In this document: positions 9,563 through 44,714 of the stretch, one piece after another | Position numbering within the stretch: position 1 is the stretch's first letter | Layout of the letters: each line of letters opens with the position of its first letter | From: an uncultured Clostridia bacterium | Lineage (GTDB): Bacteria; Bacillota; Clostridia; TANB77; CAG-508 | Assembly: GCA_947601495.1 (NCBI GenBank) | Contig: CANQGE010000001.1 | Coordinates: 31,731-95,730, forward strand | Reading direction: 5' to 3' | Length of the DNA: 64,000 bases | The notes under the pieces: model-generated | The model's input: the letters and a program-made list of their open reading frames with translations, nothing else | What the model was told of the DNA's origin: nothing | Database searches by the model: none | Program-made: the position numbers and the translations under genes

Positions 9563-9638
<76 letters not shown>

Positions 9639-19495: not shown

Positions 19496-21604
19496 TTATT
19501 CTTCGCTATATAAGTCTTTTCTTGTTAAATTAATTCTGCCTTGGTCGTCTATTTCATAAACTTTAACAGTTACTTCATCTCCAAGTTTTAAGACATCTTC
19601 TACTTTATTTATTCTTTCTTTTGCTATTTTAGAAATGTGAAGTAATCCTTCTTTTCCTCCGCCTAAATCTATAAATGCACCAAATGTAGCTATTCTTGTA
19701 ACTTTTCCTGTATAGATTCCATCAACTTCAATTTCTCTTGTTATTTCTTCTATGATACTTTGAGCAGATCTTGCTTTTTCTATATCATCTGAATAAATAA
19801 ATACAGAACCATCTTCTTCAATATCAATTTTAACTCCTGTTTCTTCAATAATTTTATTAATAACTTTTCCGCCAGAACCAATAACATCTTTAATTTTTTC
19901 TGGATTAATTTGCATATTAATAATTTTTGGAGCATATTTTGAAATTTCTTTTCTAGGTTCAGAAATTTGTGGAAGCATTATTTCATCTAAAATGTATGTC
20001 CTTGCTTTTGCTGTTCTCTCAAATGCTTCTTCAATAATTTCATAGCTTAATCCATCAACTTTTATATCTACTTGAATTGCTGTTATTCCATCTTTTGTTC
20101 CACCAACTTTAAAGTCCATATCGCCAAAGAAATCTTCAATTCCTTGAATATCTGTAATAACAACATATTTGCTTGGATCATTTTCATCAGTAATTAATCC
20201 TGTTGAAATACCTGCAACTGGTTTCTTTATTGGAACACCAGCATCCATTAATGCCAATGTTGATGCACAAATGCTTCCTTGTGATGTAGAACCATTTGAA
20301 CTTAAAATTTCAGATACAACTCTTATTGAATAAGGAAATTCTTCTACACTTGGAAGTACTGGAACTAATGCTTTTTCAGCTAATGCACCATGTCCAATTT
20401 CTCTTCTTCCAGGTCCACGAGAAGCTTTTACTTCTCCAACACTATATCCTGGAAAATTATATTGATGCATATATCTTTTTGATTCTTCTGTATCTAGTCC
20501 ATCTAATAATTGCTCTTCGCTTTTCATTCCTAATGTAACTATTGACATTACTTGTGTTCTTCCTCTATTAAATAAACTACTACCATGAACTCTAGGAATT
20601 AATCCAACTTCACAAGATAATGGTCTTATATCATATATTCCTCTACCATCAACTCTTTTTCCTTCTTCTAGTATTAGTTTTCTAACAGTTTTCTTCTCTA
20701 ATTTATATATAGCATCTGCTATAGCTGTTTTATCTTCTTCAGCTTTTTCTTCACCAAATTTTTCAATATACCAATTTTTAACATCTTCTGAAAGCTTGTC
20801 TATTTTTTCATCTCTTTCTGGTTTATCTGGTGTTTGAACATCTTGTTTCATTCTTTCAGAAAATTCATTTGCTATTACTTCATAAACTTCTTCATTTACA
20901 GCAAAAGATGTATATTCAAATTTTGGTTTTCCTATTTCATCTTTTATTCCTTGTATAAATTCACATACTTTTTTAATTTCTACATGTGCTGTTTTAATTG
21001 CATCTAACATTGTTTTGTTTGGTATTTCATCAGCACCTGCTTCTATCATTGCTATTTTATCTTTAGTTCCTGCAACAGTTAATGTTAATCTACTATTTTT
21101 TCTTTGTTCTTCAGTAGGATTTATAACTATTTGGTCATTAACATATCCAACTGCAACAGCTGCTGTTGGTCCTCCAAATGGTATATCAGATATTGAAAGT
21201 GCAGCAGAAGTTCCTATCATACTGCAAACTTCTGGTGAGCAATCTTGCTCTACTGATAAAACTAAACAGCTAACAACAACATCATTTCTAAAATCTTTTG
21301 GGAACAATGGTCTAATTGGTCTATCTATTGCTCTTGCTGTTAAAATTGCTTTATCTGTTGGTTTTCCTTCTCTTTTTGTAAAGCTTCCAGGTATTTTTCC
21401 AACAGCATATAATCTTTCTTCATAATCTACTGAAAGTGGGAAAAAGTCTATTCCTTCTTTTGGTTCTTTTGAAGCTGTAACATTAACAAGTACAGTTGTT
21501 TCGCCATATCTTACAAGTACGCTTCCATTGGCAAGTCCTGCCATTTTTCCTGTTTCTATAGTAAGTGTTCTTCCTGCTAATTCCATACTATAAGTTTTAA
21601 ACAT
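19496..21604 (-). CDS. pnp: Polyribonucleotide nucleotidyltransferase (PNPase)
   Basis: 702 aa with two RNase PH domains, a KH domain and a C-terminal S1 domain (GKVTRIATFGAFIDLGGGKEGLLHISKI). Confidence 0.95.
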   Translation of the reverse strand: MFKTYSMELAGRTLTIETGKMAGLANGSVLVRYGETTVLVNVTASKEPKEGIDFFPLSVDYEERLYAVGKIPGSFTKREGKPTDKAILTARAIDRPIRPLFPKDFRNDVVVSCLVLSVEQDCSPEVCSMIGTSAALSISDIPFGGPTAAVAVGYVNDQIVINPTEEQRKNSRLTLTVAGTKDKIAMIEAGADEIPNKTMLDAIKTAHVEIKKVCEFIQGIKDEIGKPKFEYTSFAVNEEVYEVIANEFSERMKQDVQTPDKPERDEKIDKLSEDVKNWYIEKFGEEKAEEDKTAIADAIYKLEKKTVRKLILEEGKRVDGRGIYDIRPLSCEVGLIPRVHGSSLFNRGRTQVMSIVTLGMKSEEQLLDGLDTEESKRYMHQYNFPGYSVGEVKASRGPGRREIGHGALAEKALVPVLPSVEEFPYSIRVVSEILSSNGSTSQGSICASTLALMDAGVPIKKPVAGISTGLITDENDPSKYVVITDIQGIEDFFGDMDFKVGGTKDGITAIQVDIKVDGLSYEIIEEAFERTAKARTYILDEIMLPQISEPRKEISKYAPKIINMQINPEKIKDVIGSGGKVINKIIEETGVKIDIEEDGSVFIYSDDIEKARSAQSIIEEITREIEVDGIYTGKVTRIATFGAFIDLGGGKEGLLHISKIAKERINKVEDVLKLGDEVTVKVYEIDDQGRINLTRKDLYSEE

Positions 21605-21840
21605 TTTACATTCCTCCTATAAATTAATTTTATTTATTTGAAATGTAACCTCTACAATATAGTATTTTGCTTAAAAATAATACATTGTACAAGCTACTCT
21701 TTCAAATAAATAACCATAAGTATTTTACTATATTAACATAAAAAAATCAAGATAATATTTATTTCTAAGTTCTATCATTTGCATTTGTATATTTTTTAAT
21801 TATTAATTTTATTTTTAGCTATTATTATTTAAATAGCTAT

Positions 21841-21988
21841 CTAATATAGTTTATATAATTTAAAGGTAACGCGTAAGCGACCAACCGAAGCGAAAGCGAA
21901 GGGCGATTGGAGCAATCTTCATTTTGTTAATTTTAAAAAAAGAAGATTGCGACACCAAGTTACCGATAAATTATATAAACTATATTAG
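21841..21988. repeat. Palindromic intergenic element E1: 22-bp AT-rich inverted arms flanking a roughly 100-bp GC-rich structured core, in the rpsO-pnp leader
   Basis: Outer arms ctaatatagtttatataattta (21841-21862) and taaattatataaactatattag (21967-21988) are perfect complements. The core 21865-21964 (ggtaacgcgtaagcgaccaaccgaagcgaaagcgaagggcgattggagcaatcttc...gaagattgcgacaccaagttacc) folds into a long hairpin. A near-identical copy in inverted orientation lies at 44526-44679. Confidence 0.7.
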
Positions 21989-22045
21989 ATAATGGTATTT
22001 TAATTAAACAGATATAATAAACTTAAAATAAAATTTTTGCTTCAA

Positions 22046-22070
22046 AATAAAAAACTCGGAACAAATCCGA
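22046..22070 (-). terminator. rpsO terminator
   Basis: ctcggaacaaatccgag hairpin, followed by a T-run on the minus strand immediately after the rpsO stop. Confidence 0.55.
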
Positions 22071-22078
22071 GCTTTTAA

Positions 22079-22342
22079 TTATTTTCTTAAGTTTAATTTT
22101 TTAACTATTTCTCTATATCTGTTAACATCTTTCTTAGCTAAATAGTTTAATAAATTTCTTCTTTTACCAATCATTTTTAATAATCCTCTTCTAGAGTGAT
22201 TATCTTTTTGATGAACTTTTAAGTGTTCTGTTAATTCTGATATTCTTTCTGATAAAAGAGCAATTTGTACTTCTGGTGATCCAGTATCATTTTCTTCTCT
22301 CTTATAAGTATTAATAATTTCTTGTTTTCTTTCTTTAGTCAT
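22079..22342 (-). CDS. rpsO: 30S ribosomal protein S15
   Basis: [14 protein letters not shown]...[29 protein letters not shown] is the canonical S15. The start was moved to the internal ATG at 22342, which is preceded by an AGGAGG RBS. The ORF-track start at 22375 has no RBS. Confidence 0.9.
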
Positions 22343-25699: not shown

Positions 25700-25733
25700 A
25701 AAATCCTCCTAAAAAATTTTTTAATTTAATTTT

Positions 25734-25922
25734 TTATTAACTATATAATATAACTGAATTGCAGCTATCGCTTTTGAAAGTAATTGAGTTAGAATTGCTT
25801 AATATATTTTACGGAAAGAGTTCACAAACTTGTGGAAGGGTGCCGTAAAATGTATTTAGCAATTCTACGAAAATTAGCTTGAACAAGATAGCGAAAATGA
25901 AGTTATATTATATAGCTAATAA
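25734..25922. repeat. Palindromic intergenic element E2: AT-rich inverted arms and an imperfectly palindromic core of about 145 bp
   Basis: Arms ttattaactatataatataact and agttatattatatagctaataa are complementary with one mismatch. The core has nested inverted repeats (gaattgcagctatcg...cgatagc...gcaattc; ttttacgg...ccgtaaaa). Confidence 0.6.
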
Positions 25923-26037
25923 AGCTTATTTCTAAGTAAAAGTTTTTAAGCAAAAGTATATTTTTAAACAAAAAAATACTTCTATAAAATTATATTTATA
26001 GAAGCATTTTTTATAACTATTTAATATATCTTTTCTA

Positions 26038-29883: not shown

Positions 29884-30097
29884 TAATTAGCAAAATTATA
29901 TTATTCAATTAAGTTTTTCCGTTCCAGCTAATTCTTATAGAAATTCTAAAATTATAAAATGCGCCTCTTTCGCTGCTCAAATCTTCGATTTGCCTTCGAA
30001 CATCCCTCATTTTATAATTTAAGAATTTCTATATAAGAATTACTCTCAATCCAAAACTTAATTTCATAATATAAATTTTGCTAATTTTAGTTAATTT
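29884..30097. repeat. Nested palindromic intergenic element E3, between coaE and queA
   Basis: Outer arms ttaattagcaaaattatattat (29884-29905) and ataatataaattttgctaatt (from about 30069). Inner arms tcttatagaaattctaaaattataaaatg (29932-29960) and cattttataatttaagaatttctatataaga (30009-30040). These enclose a GC-rich core gcgcctctttcgctgctcaaatcttcgatttgccttcgaacatccctc. Confidence 0.6.
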
Positions 30098-32495: not shown

Positions 32496-33662
32496 TTATT
32501 TCATTACTTCTTTTATTACATTTGCTAAATATTTCATACTGCTATTGCACTGTTCTAAAGTATTTCCTGTTGCTCCAACTTCTATTATGCATGCTCCATT
32601 TGCCACATGCTGATTGTATCTTGAATCTCTTAGTATTATTGGTTTAAAAAAACCCGGATACATTTCATTTGCTTTTTCCTGAATTTTTACTGCCAATTTT
32701 AAATTATTTATCCAGTTTGGATGCTCTAATCCTCCTCCATCACTTCCCATAACAAACATAACTTGAGCTACAACATCATCTCCTATTTGTACACAAGGTG
32801 CATAAGAACTATTATTTCCTAACGCATCTCTATGTAAATCTATTACAAATTCAGTATCATTGTTATTTGCAAGCATACTTTGAATTGTAGATAGTCCTCT
32901 AGTATATGAACCTGTGTATGCTGGATAATCGTGATATGTTGTATTATGAGTTACATTAAATCCAAATTCTGTAAGATAATTTGTAAGTTCAGTTCCAACT
33001 CTTGCCACACTTTTTTCTAAATCTATTGTTCTAAAATTTCCACTAGCGACATAATTGTTTTCTACTGTAGGAGTGTAACTTTCACAAGTATGTGTATGAT
33101 AAATTATAATGTTCTTTTTATTTGAAAAATCTATATTTGGATTTAGCATTTCTTGTGTAAGTGGATATTTAGATTCATTCTTTATTTTCACACTATTATA
33201 TGTATCTGTAAACTTATCAATTTTGTTATTGTCATCTATAACTTTTGTTGGGAGTAAGACATTTTCTAAATCATTTAAACTACTATTGTTTAAATTACTA
33301 TCACCATTTGTTTTGCCTAAATTAACATTATTCTCTTGGATTTCTGAATCCACTTGCTTTTCTTCTGAATTCAAAATTTTAATTTCTGACATTAACAATT
33401 TTTTAAATACACTTACATTTTCATTTTTAGTTTGTTCGTTTGAAAAAGATTTAGAAATTATAAGTGTATTATCTAATATTTTTTCTACGCCAAAATTAGA
33501 AAAATATTTTTCTTTAACAGCTGAAATATTTTTTGTAGTTTTAACTGCTCCTATAACTTTCCATAACACAAATAAAATAATTAAAAGTACTATACATTTT
33601 TTTATGAACTTAATTATATCTTTTAGGTTTATAACAGCTAAATTAATCATATTTTTCCTCAC
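32496..33662 (-). CDS. spoIIP: Stage II sporulation protein P
   Basis: N-terminal TM and the hallmark IIYHTHTCESYTP motif. The C-terminal amidase-like domain has DLHRDA. Confidence 0.85.
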   Translation of the reverse strand: MRKNMINLAVINLKDIIKFIKKCIVLLIILFVLWKVIGAVKTTKNISAVKEKYFSNFGVEKILDNTLIISKSFSNEQTKNENVSVFKKLLMSEIKILNSEEKQVDSEIQENNVNLGKTNGDSNLNNSSLNDLENVLLPTKVIDDNNKIDKFTDTYNSVKIKNESKYPLTQEMLNPNIDFSNKKNIIIYHTHTCESYTPTVENNYVASGNFRTIDLEKSVARVGTELTNYLTEFGFNVTHNTTYHDYPAYTGSYTRGLSTIQSMLANNNDTEFVIDLHRDALGNNSSYAPCVQIGDDVVAQVMFVMGSDGGGLEHPNWINNLKLAVKIQEKANEMYPGFFKPIILRDSRYNQHVANGACIIEVGATGNTLEQCNSSMKYLANVIKEVMK

Positions 33663-33828
33663 TTACAAACAAGTATATTAATTTGAAATACAAATTATTA
33701 CTTAATTTAAATTAAAAATGAACTTAAAATATTTCTAATATTCTAAGTTCATCTTCTATTTTAATTGTATTTTACTTTTCTATTAATATAATTAATTTAG
33801 CTGTTGTTTAATCTTTATTTTAAGAAGT

Positions 33829-44410: not shown

Positions 44411-44445
44411 AACTCTTAGGAATTATTTTCTTAAGAGTTTTTTTG
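44411..44445 (+). terminator. Rho-independent terminator of the GT4 gene
   Basis: aactcttagg aattattttc ttaagagtt hairpin, followed by TTTTTT. Confidence 0.6.
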
Positions 44446-44454
44446 ATAAGAAAA

Positions 44455-44523
44455 ATTGCTTAATATTATTAACATTGCTTAATAATATTATTAAATATTA
44501 ATCAATACTATTAATCAATACTA
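44455..44523. repeat. Short AT-rich tandem direct repeats
   Basis: attgcttaata(t)tattaa occurs twice, then (a)ttaatcaatacta occurs twice, back-to-back. Confidence 0.6.
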
Positions 44524-44525
44524 TT

Positions 44526-44679
44526 GTGAATGCTTAAAAAATATAATTTAATAGTAACTTGGTGTCGCAATCTTCTTTTTTATAAATAAACAAAAGGAAG
44601 ATTGCTCCAATCGCCCTCCGCTTATGCTTCGGTTGGTCGCTTACGCGTTACTATTTAATTATATTTTTTAAGCATTCAT
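44526..44679. repeat. Palindromic intergenic element E4: inverted near-identical copy of E1
   Basis: Arms gtgaatgcttaaaaaatataatttaatag and ctatttaattatattttttaagcattcat are complementary with one mismatch. The core gtaacttggtgtcgcaatcttc...gaagattgctccaatcgccctccgcttatgcttcggttggtcgcttacgcgttac matches the reverse complement of E1 21865-21964 with a handful of substitutions. Confidence 0.7.
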
Positions 44680-44714
44680 AATATTTTTTGCAATTAATTT
44701 TAAAAATTATTTTA

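What the first reader, a model, noticed from the sequence alone, without database searches (positions are those of the whole stretch)
21841..21988. GC-rich structured palindromic element in the rpsO-pnp leader, duplicated in inverted orientation about 22.5 kb away
Seen: a 148-bp element with perfect 22-bp AT-rich inverted arms and a GC-rich core (about 55% GC in a roughly 27% GC genome). The core itself is a long hairpin (GGTAAC...GCAATCTTC / GAAGATTGC...GTTACC). Its reverse complement recurs at 44526-44679 with only a few substitutions; two of these sit together inside the otherwise conserved core (TTCGCTTTCGC versus TCCGCTTATGC). Established: in other bacteria the rpsO-pnp intergenic region carries the RNase III-processed hairpin used for pnp autoregulation. 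Inference: either a small mobile or duplicated MITE-like repeat family has inserted into the pnp leader, or a structured RNA motif (processing or termination element) is used at more than one locus. The intervening 22 kb is housekeeping (rpsO through recJ), so the pair does not delimit a mobile island.
Basis: partly seen in the sequence, partly recalled or inferred. Interest (0 to 1): 0.62.

Follow-up and report, generated by a model that had tools for sequence, protein, structure and literature searches.

The report
Dispersed flipping hairpin repeat, not pnp leader
The GC-rich palindrome between rpsO and pnp is one copy of a previously undescribed non-coding hairpin repeat scattered about 40-50 times through the genomes of some uncultured gut Clostridia, and it is not part of the machinery that regulates pnp.

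Summary
Both copies exist as described. Each is a 154-162 bp hairpin: AT-rich arms of 33-37 bp around a 98-nt core, and the cores are about 93% identical.

It is neither a two-copy duplication nor a pnp regulatory hairpin. A genome scan plus a covariance model found about 50 copies in seven MAGs of uncultured Clostridia, more than 35 of them in one MAG. Every copy is intergenic, in either orientation relative to its neighbours.

The closest relative of the window's organism has a 259-bp rpsO-pnp spacer without the element. Another relative carries a copy in the opposite orientation. The conserved pnp promoter and leader lie downstream of the element.

Rfam, phage, plasmid, viral and JGI metagenome searches found nothing.

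The core folds as a closing stem (P1), a GCGNNAGC mini-hairpin (P2), a bulged hairpin (P3) and a long hairpin (P4). P1, P4 and the arms covary strongly.

At orthologous loci the core is 96-97% conserved where neutral sites are 72-76% identical. In three of five orthologous pairs the core has flipped in place between its arms.

Best reading: a new REPIN/MITE-like structured repeat that acts as a folded single strand, more likely DNA than RNA. Its mobiliser and its function are unknown.

The parts
21838..21870 (+). Copy A, 5' arm. AT-rich; the inner 5 nt, GTAAC, are P1.
   Evidence: Inverted repeat I3, 33 nt, 94% complementary. Arm extension analysis.
21871..21878 (+). Copy A, P2: GCGTAAGC, matching the GCGNNAGC mini-hairpin motif.
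   Evidence: Read from the sequence. In nearly all of the 48 aligned copies this position is GCGNNAGC or GCGNAGC. Motif definition from PMC13037366.
21881..21910 (+). Copy A, P3: CCAA/TTGG and CC/GG stems, a GAA/GAA internal loop, a GCGA bulge and the apical hairpin GCGAAAGC.
   Evidence: Consensus fold. These pairs are invariant in all copies, partly because the search pattern required them.
21912..21950 (+). Copy A, P4: GCAATCTTC / GAAGATTGC stem with a 21-nt loop of 5% GC.
   Evidence: Folds. Compensatory variants in other MAGs: GCAACCAACC/GGTTGGTTG and GGAGTAATC/GATTACTCC.
21951..21958 (+). Copy A, conserved single-stranded joiner GACACCAA between P4 and the 3' strand of P1.
   Evidence: Alignment A3.
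21959..21991 (+). Copy A, 3' arm. The first 5 nt, GTTAC, are the 3' strand of P1.
44522..44683 (-). Copy B, whole hairpin: 37-nt arms and the core at 44554-44651. It lies between the region downstream of the TraX-like gene and a bidirectional terminator at about 44413-44455.
   Evidence: An orthologous copy in the same orientation is present in MAG Lapin-015__bin83 (L012:6966-7084).
21793..22047 (.). Outer imperfect palindrome around copy A (arms 21793-21818 and 22022-22047, 77% complementary). It roughly matches the about 215 bp that are absent from the closest relative.
   Evidence: Inverted repeat I16. Alignments A2 and A4.
22050..22076 (-). rpsO intrinsic terminator. This is context, not part of the element.
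   Evidence: Conserved in L049, L050, L053 and L055.
21605..21790 (-). Conserved pnp promoter-like site (TTGATT-17-TAAAAT, 21750-21722) and pnp leader. This is context: it lies downstream of the element and is present in relatives with or without the element.
   Evidence: Alignment A4.

Best explanation
The element is one copy of a dispersed, non-coding, hairpin-forming repeat family of the REPIN/MITE/ERIC kind. The family is confined, as far as the searches reach, to a clade of uncultured gut Clostridia.

Anatomy:
- Each unit is about 155-190 bp.
- It has an oriented core of about 88-98 nt: closing stem P1, mini-hairpin P2 (GCGNNAGC or GCGNAGC), bulged hairpin P3, long hairpin P4 with an AT-rich loop, and the joiner GACACCAA.
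- The core sits at the tip of a 25-45 bp AT-rich stem whose sequence differs from copy to copy but stays self-complementary.

Shown:
- The family is multicopy, strictly intergenic and found in both orientations.
- Loci differ between relatives in whether they hold a copy.
- Copies persist at orthologous loci with the core far better conserved than neutral sites.
- The core can invert in place between its arms.

Inferred:
- The unit works as a folded single strand, and the core is the recognition module for a trans-acting protein that copies or maintains it.
- That strand is more likely DNA (exposed at replication or during transfer) than RNA.
- Flipping comes from recombination or template switching between the arms.

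In this window, copy A is a passenger in the rpsO-pnp spacer, upstream of the pnp promoter. No role in pnp control is shown.
For: Family and distribution:
- The genome scan gave 41 loci in seven MAGs, most in Lapin-015__bin83.
- The covariance model found about 50 copies in the held sequence, and only two in the window.
- No copy lies inside an ORF. Contexts are 12 sense, 14 antisense, 10 between divergent genes and 5 between convergent genes.

The rpsO-pnp spacer varies among relatives:
- 259 bp with no element in L049 and L055, whose PNPase is 99% identical to the window's;
- 363 bp with no element in L052;
- 616-683 bp with a sense-oriented copy in L050 and L053;
- 474 bp with an antisense copy in the window and in seven metagenome contigs of the same species.

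Structure:
- 97.9% of cells are paired, against 82.8% in shuffles and at most 42% with slid partners.
- 18 of 29 pairs show changes on both sides, in P1, P4 and the arms.
- In the internal stems P3 and P4, mismatches are 10 G.T to 0 A.C on the strand that carries the GNRA loops. In the arms and P1 they are 6 to 6.

Conservation at orthologous loci:
- Between Lapin-015 and Lapin-032, fourfold-degenerate sites are 72-76% identical.
- The core outside the P4 loop is identical at 65 of 68 and 67 of 69 positions; the P4 loop is 75-77% identical.

In-place inversion:
- L014:7310-7426 versus L056:3682-3798, where neutral identity is 96%.
- L007 versus L024.
- L039 versus L018.
- In each pair the arms are retained, and the inner-arm mismatches flip together with the core.

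DNA rather than RNA:
- P2 is GCGNNAGC in most copies and the 7-mer GCGNAGC in at least eight.
- Both forms match the 'mini-hairpin DNA' consensus, which is far more stable as DNA than as RNA and occurs at single-stranded DNA priming and promoter sites (PMC13037366).
Against: - No mobilising protein was found. The held loci contain no multicopy ORF and no Y1-transposase-like motif, and the window contains only housekeeping genes.
- No target-site duplication or clean empty site was obtained. At the rpsO-pnp spacer, a deletion in the Lapin-015 lineage explains the difference as well as an insertion in the window lineage does. The window keeps a stretch homologous to the arm of the L050 copy.
- Apart from one pair (the two copies in L023), paralogous copies share only the inner 20-30 nt of their arms. 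That does not look like a recent transposition burst, and the origin of the copy-specific outer arms is unexplained.
- Core conservation could reflect gene conversion among copies rather than selection.
- The 25 nt of P2-P3 used as the search pattern are invariant by construction.
- The preference for DNA over RNA rests on a motif match and on few independent G.T events. Nearest-neighbour energies show no difference between the strands.
Confidence: 0.6

Rival explanations
1. A multicopy small RNA gene family. Each copy would be transcribed, the long AT-rich stem would be cut by RNase III, and a stable structured RNA of about 100 nt (P1-P4 with GNRA loops) would be released to act in trans.
For: - GNRA-type loops (GUAA, GAAA, GAGA, GCAA) lie on one strand only.
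- P1 and P4 covary.
- Mismatches in the internal stems are G.U only on that strand.
- The core is strongly conserved at orthologous loci.
- Independence of orientation from neighbouring genes fits a self-contained gene.
Against: - No promoter above chance lies in or next to the copies.
- No terminator or T-run beyond background follows the hairpin.
- At least eight copies have P2 as a 2-bp stem with a 3-nt loop (GCGUAGC or GCGCAGC), which is weak as RNA but fits the stable DNA mini-hairpin.
- Several P3 loops are not GNRA: AUAA, AUUA, GUAU and AUAU.
- Forty or more copies of one small RNA gene would be unusual.
- There is no Rfam match.
Confidence: 0.17
2. A family of programmed invertible DNA switches (invertons). 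A site-specific recombinase would act on the inverted arms, for example at the conserved TATATA box, and flip the core to change a directional signal for neighbouring genes.
For: - The core is inverted in three of five orthologous comparisons, once at only about 4% neutral divergence.
- The arms are inverted repeats of 25-45 bp with a semi-conserved TATATA box at a roughly fixed distance from the core.
- Crossovers lie outside the inner 14 nt of the arms.
Against: - No promoter or terminator was detected in the core on either strand.
- Arm sequences differ between copies, which does not fit a single sequence-specific recombinase.
- The flipped segment is only about 90-115 bp.
- All seven population contigs of the window's species show the same orientation at copy A.
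- No recombinase gene lies near any copy.
- Closely spaced inverted repeats can invert their spacer without a dedicated enzyme (my own knowledge, not tested here).
Confidence: 0.1
3. A classical cut-and-paste MITE derived from an insertion sequence, with the arms acting as terminal inverted repeats bound by a transposase supplied in trans.
For: - The element is small, non-coding, multicopy and intergenic, with inverted ends.
- Many copies end in TTCTTATAG...CTATAAGAA.
- Three copies in the goat MAG JAFRCC01 share long conserved arms ending in GTTAC...GTAAC.
- A different hairpin in the window (29892-30078) has arms that include the same AATTCTTATAG.
Against: - The outer arms are not conserved across copies within one genome.
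- No target-site duplication is visible, for example at the near-identical pair in L023.
- The best-conserved part is the asymmetric centre, not the ends. A cut-and-paste element needs conserved ends and has no need for a covarying internal fold.
- No parent element with a transposase was found.
Confidence: 0.1
4. The hairpin is the rpsO-pnp leader structure that RNase III and PNPase use to autoregulate pnp.
For: Only its position between rpsO and pnp, and its ability to form a long duplex.
Against: - It is absent from the same spacer in the nearest relatives, L049 and L055, whose PNPase is 99% identical.
- It is present at about 50 unrelated loci.
- Its position and orientation differ in L050 and L053.
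- It lies upstream of the promoter-like site and of the leader that are conserved in all relatives.
Confidence: 0.02

Closest known systems
REPINs (REP doublets forming hairpins) with RAYT transposases (PMC3116915; bioRxiv 10.1101/2021.07.10.451892)
   Same: Both are non-coding, multicopy, intergenic units of about 100-200 nt that fold as long hairpins, with pairing kept by compensatory change. Both are inherited vertically and persist at loci for long periods.
   Different: In REPINs the conserved sequence is in the two arms (the REPs, often tagged GTAG or CGTC) and the tip is variable. Here the tip is conserved and asymmetric while the arms vary. No RAYT-like gene was seen, although the genomes could not be searched in full.
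Correia elements of Neisseria, ERIC/IRU of enterobacteria, BOX and RUP of pneumococcus, bcr1 of the Bacillus cereus group (review: PMC3184786; survey of stem-loop families: PMC2267715)
   Same: All are small palindromic intergenic repeats found in both orientations. They fold stably when single-stranded and differ in presence or absence between relatives.
   Different: Those families have conserved terminal inverted repeats, and several duplicate a TA or short target. None is described, as far as I know, with an invariant GC-rich multi-hairpin centre that flips in place. There is no sequence similarity: Rfam, phage and plasmid searches were negative.
Single-stranded DNA initiation and promoter signals that carry mini-hairpin motifs: complementary-strand origins of phages G4, St-1 and alpha3, ssiA of RSF1010, and phage N4 virion RNA polymerase promoters (PMC13037366)
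   Same: The core holds GCGNNAGC or GCGNAGC motifs (P2, and the tip of P3 in most copies) inside a larger fold that appears to be strand-specific.
   Different: Those signals are single, orientation-fixed sites on phage or plasmid replicons. This element is a chromosomal family of 40 or more copies in both orientations. No priming or promoter activity has been tested.
Invertible promoter switches (invertons) of gut bacteria
   Same: A short segment is bounded by inverted repeats and found in both orientations at the same locus.
   Different: No promoter was detected, the inverted repeats are not conserved between loci, no recombinase lies nearby, and the flipped segment is unusually short.
The rpsO-pnp leader hairpin of E. 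coli (RNase III site for pnp autoregulation)
   Same: Only the location between rpsO and pnp and the potential to form a long duplex.
   Different: This element is not conserved in relatives, is antisense in this genome, lies upstream of the conserved pnp promoter and leader, and is repeated at about 50 unrelated loci.

Membership tests
pnp autoregulatory leader hairpin | Conserved in the rpsO-pnp spacer of related genomes | tested here: not met
   Absent in L049, L055 and L052. Present at a different position and in a different orientation in L050 and L053.
pnp autoregulatory leader hairpin | Lies within the pnp transcript, in the sense orientation, between the promoter and the start codon | tested here: not met
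   The element (21838-21991) lies upstream of the conserved promoter-like site at 21750-21722. The GNRA-loop strand is antisense. Transcript ends were not mapped.
MITE | Small, non-coding and multicopy, with presence or absence differing between relatives | tested here: met
MITE | Terminal inverted repeats with a sequence conserved across copies | tested here: not met
   Arms are self-complementary in every copy, but across paralogues only the inner 20-30 nt are alike. A subset shares TTCTTATAG ends.
MITE | Target-site duplication | tested here: inconclusive
   No direct repeat flanks the near-identical pair in L023 or other copies. No clean empty site from a near-identical genome was available.
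MITE | A parent insertion sequence that shares the ends | tested here: inconclusive
   None in about 470 kb of held sequence, nor in the phage or plasmid collections. Whole genomes could not be searched.
REPIN/REP | Two inverted REP units with conserved sequence (a short palindrome, often with a GTAG or CGTC tag) around a variable spacer | tested here: not met
   The layout is the opposite: the centre is conserved and the arms vary.
REPIN/REP | An associated single-copy RAYT gene flanked by the repeats | not testable with these tools
   Only 8-22 kb pieces of the MAGs were available, and none holds a Y1-like ORF.
Inverton | The same locus is found in both orientations | tested here: met
   This holds between related genomes. 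It was not seen within one population, and reads were not available.
Inverton | A directional signal (promoter) in the invertible segment and a dedicated recombinase | tested here: not met
   No promoter above chance. No recombinase near any copy.
Any Rfam RNA family | Score at or above the family's gathering threshold | tested here: not met
   The only hit in the window is a tRNA. Nothing better than E=4 on the element. Divergent copies in L040 and L019 are also unmatched.
Mini-hairpin DNA motif | Sequence GCGNNAGC or GCGNAGC | tested here: met
   P2 matches in nearly all copies, and the tip of P3 in most. Definition from PMC13037366. Whether it forms in vivo was not tested.

The most novel reading that the evidence does not exclude
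The family may be a new class of structure-defined element that lives through its folded single-stranded DNA form. The conserved tip, two mini-hairpins plus P4, would be a nicking, priming or recognition signal for an unidentified enzyme. The element would be copied or inverted by hairpin-templated synthesis, comparable to the flip/flop of parvovirus terminal hairpins. That would also account for the self-complementary but copy-specific outer arms. Alternatively, it may have been domesticated by the host, as the selection on every copy would suggest.
Probability: 0.15. Interest if true: 0.8.

Novelty: new variant of a known kind. Interest (0 to 1): 0.45.

Why it matters
For annotation, this element should not be read as a pnp regulatory structure.

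More broadly, it adds a well-defined repeat family from an uncultured gut clade, with an unusual combination of properties:
- an invariant, covarying, asymmetric tip;
- arms that keep their pairing but not their sequence;
- core conservation at orthologous loci far above neutral sites;
- frequent inversion of the tip in place.

If the core proves to be a single-stranded DNA signal or the handle of a new mobilising enzyme, it would give a tractable system for studying how hairpin repeats spread and persist in bacterial genomes. If it is an RNA, it would be a new abundant structured RNA.

The repeat also breaks short-read assemblies: contigs L054 and L056 start inside it.

Tried and rejected
1. 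Known RNA family. Rfam at gathering and at permissive E-value thresholds gave nothing for the window copies or for divergent copies.
2. Phage or plasmid origin. No blastn match, no match in viral contigs and none in JGI metagenomes.
3. The element lands in the loops of intrinsic terminators. A few copies suggested this: the two in L014, and those in L005, L023 and L036. Across 35 copies, however, a T-run or A-run next to the hairpin base occurs in 4 and 6 cases, which equals the 17% background. Rejected as a general rule.
4. A promoter split between core and arm, or any promoter in the element. Not above shuffled expectation.
5. A transposase next to copies. There is no multicopy ORF. A truncated copy in L027 is followed by a mechanosensitive-channel gene, not a transposase. 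No Y1 motif was found.
6. Defining exact insertion boundaries from the rpsO-pnp spacer, and from the spacer after the GntR-family gene in L057 and L058. The spacers are too diverged, and a deletion is as likely as an insertion.
7. A difference in fold energy between the two strands. None with RNA or DNA parameters.
8. The 46-nt GC-rich core at 29969-30014 as a second multicopy family. It occurs only in the window and its orthologue L049, and the covariance model does not detect it.
9. A literature search for a described Clostridial equivalent found none.

Full report
**Observation**

- At 21841-21988 there are perfect 22-nt AT-rich inverted arms. They extend to 33 nt at 94% complementarity (21838-21870 and 21959-21991).
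- The arms enclose GGTAAC...GTTACC.
- The reverse complement recurs at 44522-44683.
- Core words of 15 and 20 nt occur only at these two places, against at most 0.07 expected.
- Both units fold far better than shuffles, with z-scores of about -10.5.
- The window is 26.2% GC and the 5' 55 nt of the core are 54.5% GC.

Each copy carries its own self-complementary arms.

**Gene context**

rpsO (22079-22342) and pnp (19496-21604) are on the minus strand. The rpsO terminator is at 22050-22076, and a promoter-like site, TTGATT-17-TAAAAT, is at 21750-21722. The element lies between the two. Its GNRA-loop strand is the plus strand, so it is antisense to both genes. Copy B lies on the minus strand between the TraX-like gene and a bidirectional terminator shared with a convergent glycosyltransferase gene.

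**It is a family**

One scan of species-representative genomes, using a 25-nt gapped pattern from the core, returned 41 loci.
- Most are in a single rabbit-gut MAG (uncultured Clostridia, Lapin-015__bin83, CANQYM01).
- The rest are in six other Clostridia MAGs, including one from goat ileum.
- A covariance model built from 41 copies found about 50 copies in the held sequence, including ones the pattern had missed. It found no third copy in the window.

The window is a close relative of Lapin-015__bin83: 92-94% DNA identity and 95-96% identity at fourfold-degenerate sites.

No copy lies inside an ORF. Relative to flanking genes, 12 copies are sense and 14 antisense between co-directional genes, 10 lie between divergent genes and 5 between convergent genes.

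Rfam has no match for typical or divergent copies. The phage and plasmid collections, viral contigs and JGI metagenomes have none either.

**It is not the pnp leader**

Relatives were fetched through exact matches to S15 and through PNPase homologues. Their rpsO-pnp spacers fall into four states (alignments):

| Loci | Spacer | Element |
|---|---|---|
| L049 (Lapin-015__bin83), L055 | 259 bp | none |
| L052 | 363 bp | none |
| L050, L053 | 683 and 616 bp | one copy, other orientation, other position, other arms |
| window and seven contigs of its species | 474 bp | one copy, antisense |

All of these share the rpsO terminator and the last 190 bp or so before pnp, which hold the promoter-like site and a conserved leader. 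The element is therefore a variable passenger upstream of the conserved pnp control region.

I cannot say whether the window lineage gained the copy or the Lapin-015 lineage lost it. The window retains a stretch (TTTATTATATCTGTTTAATTA) homologous to the outer arm of the L050 copy. This suggests an element was already in this spacer in the common ancestor.

**Anatomy**

- **Core.** Reading 5' to 3', in copy A coordinates:
  - P1: 5 bp, GTAAC/GTTAC.
  - P2: GCGTAAGC (21871-21878).
  - P3 (21881-21910): CCAA/TTGG and CC/GG stems, a symmetric GAA/GAA internal loop, a GCGA bulge, and an apical GC-loop-GC hairpin.
  - P4 (21912-21950): a 9-bp stem with a 21-nt AT-rich loop.
  - Joiner: GACACCAA.
- **Covariation.**
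  - On the model-guided alignment of 48 copies, 97.9% of cells are paired. The figure is 82.8% in shuffles and at most 42% when partners are slid by 1-3 columns.
  - 18 of 29 pairs show changes on both sides (the independent RNAalifold result is).
  - P1 alternates among GTGAC/GTCAC, GTAAC/GTTAC, GTGCC/GGCAC, GTGAT/ATCAC and others.
  - P4 is replaced by GCAACCAACC/GGTTGGTTG or GGAGTAATC/GATTACTCC in other MAGs.
  - P2-P3 is invariant, but 25 of its positions were fixed by the search pattern.
- **Arms.** They are 25-45 bp long (up to about 60) and nearly perfectly self-complementary in every copy. Across paralogues only the inner 20-30 nt are alike: a TATATA box followed by TTTATAAGTGAC, with a recurrent A.A mismatch. 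Many copies continue to TTCTTATAG, and others have unrelated outer arms.

**Evidence that the fold matters on one strand**

In the internal stems P3 and P4, every transition-type mismatch is G.T on the strand that carries the GNRA-type loops (10 cells, at least 6 independent events), and none is A.C. In the arms and P1 the counts are 6 and 6. Nearest-neighbour energies, however, do not differ between the strands.

**Conservation and inversion at orthologous loci**

Five pairs of orthologous copies could be compared.

| Pair | Fourfold-site identity | Orientation |
|---|---|---|
| window copy B / L012 | 95% | same |
| L019 / L030 | near-identical genomes | same |
| L014:7310-7426 / L056:3682-3798 | 96% | core flipped |
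| L007 / L024 | 76% | core flipped |
| L039 / L018 | 72% | core flipped |

- In the two most diverged pairs (Lapin-015 versus Lapin-032; neutral identity), the core outside the P4 loop is identical at 65 of 68 and 67 of 69 positions. The P4 loop is 75-77% identical, and the sequence beyond the arms cannot be aligned. The core, and the pairing of the arms, are therefore under constraint at individual loci, or are kept uniform by gene conversion between copies.
- In the three flipped pairs the arms stay where they are.
- The inner-arm mismatches travel with the core, so the exchange points lie at least 14 nt out in the arms.
- The P4 loop of the L014/L056 pair is identical and specific to that copy. 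The same copy was therefore flipped, not replaced by another.
- The arms (at most 40 bp, and imperfect) are shorter than the largest assembly k-mers I would expect these assemblers to use (my assumption, not checked), so an assembly artefact is unlikely.

**DNA or RNA**

- P2 is GCGNNAGC in most copies and the 7-mer GCGNAGC (GCGTAGC or GCGCAGC) in at least eight: L003, L019, L030, L022, L017:7170, L033, L040 and L041.
- These are exactly the two forms of the 'mini-hairpin DNA' motif. According to a 2026 review, the motif is much more stable as DNA than as RNA. The review places it at the complementary-strand priming sites of phages G4, St-1 and alpha3, in ssiA, and in phage N4 single-stranded promoters (PMC13037366).
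- As RNA, a 2-bp stem with a 3-nt loop would be weak.
- No promoter above chance and no T-run above background accompany the copies.
- Orientation is unrelated to neighbouring transcription.

Together this tilts me towards a single-stranded DNA form. The evidence is indirect, and a trans-acting small RNA remains possible.

**What I could not explain**

- No transposase, recombinase or other candidate partner was found.
- No target duplication was seen.
- The origin of the copy-specific, perfectly paired outer arms is unknown.
- Two copies of one subfamily in L014 sit inside different palindromes that look like terminators (an A-run, a stem, then a T-run). This suggested insertion into terminator loops, but the pattern is not general.
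- Only one pair of paralogues, the two copies in L023, is near-identical over the full length. The family therefore does not look like a recent burst.

**Verdict**

The 'mobile or duplicated repeat family' reading is supported, with the caveats above, and the link to pnp regulation is not. The closest known kinds are REPINs and the Correia, ERIC, BOX and bcr1 type of palindromic intergenic repeats. This family differs from them in three ways: its conserved part is an asymmetric, covarying, GC-rich tip; its arms are variable; and the tip flips in place. I rate it a new variant of a known kind, of moderate interest. There is a minority chance that it represents a new single-stranded-DNA-based element or switch.

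Noticed in passing
window 29892-30078: A second long hairpin of about 190 bp with a different 46-nt GC-rich centre (29969-30014, CGCCTCTTTCGCTGCTCAAATCTTCGATTTGCCTTCGAACATCCCT). Its arms include AATTCTTATAG, the motif that ends many copies of the main family. It is present in the window and L049 and absent from L050, where the coaE-queA spacer is only 47 bp. No other copy exists in the held sequence.
   Followed up: partly
window 25733-25923: A third rod-like hairpin of about 190 bp, with 37-nt outer arms and a 54-nt inner imperfect palindrome, between a terminator and the RBS of the DUF3792 gene. It is identical in L049 and absent from L050. There is no meaningful Rfam match.
   Followed up: partly
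L018:2425-2865: Three head-to-tail copies of the element (unit 161 bp) at a locus where the orthologous site in Lapin-015__bin83 (L039:5620-5739) has a single, oppositely oriented copy. The two upstream copies carry substitutions in P3 and in the joiner.
   Followed up: partly
L003:3286-3480: Four tandem repeats of a 47-nt unit that begins AAATTCTTATAG, immediately beside an element whose arms end in TTCTTATAG.
   Followed up: no
L054:1-68 and L056:1-69: Two metagenome contigs begin inside the element, at model position 50 in the core. The repeat breaks short-read assemblies.
   Followed up: no
L033, L040:1180-1700, L041:2660-3180: In the goat-ileum MAG JAFRCC01 the family has a short P4 (a 3-nt loop) and arms of about 68 nt that are conserved among three copies and end in GTTAC...GTAAC. 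Within that genome it behaves more like a classical MITE. One copy sits just upstream of a short-chain dehydrogenase gene.
   Followed up: partly
window 33633-33805 and 60436-60625: Further inverted repeats with arms of 21-25 nt separated by 131-140 nt, in intergenic DNA. Not examined.
   Followed up: no
window 1-64000: 48 of 50 long ORFs are on the minus strand, all apparently housekeeping. Two very large adjacent ORFs (52224-55685 and 55675-59661) look like a non-ribosomal peptide synthetase, judged by eye only. One tRNA lies at 9566-9638 (minus strand).
   Followed up: no
L051:7560-10000: In a more distant relative (PNPase 94% identical), three extra genes, including a trypsin-like protease, lie between rpsO and pnp. 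This spacer is a hotspot for rearrangement in the clade.
   Followed up: no
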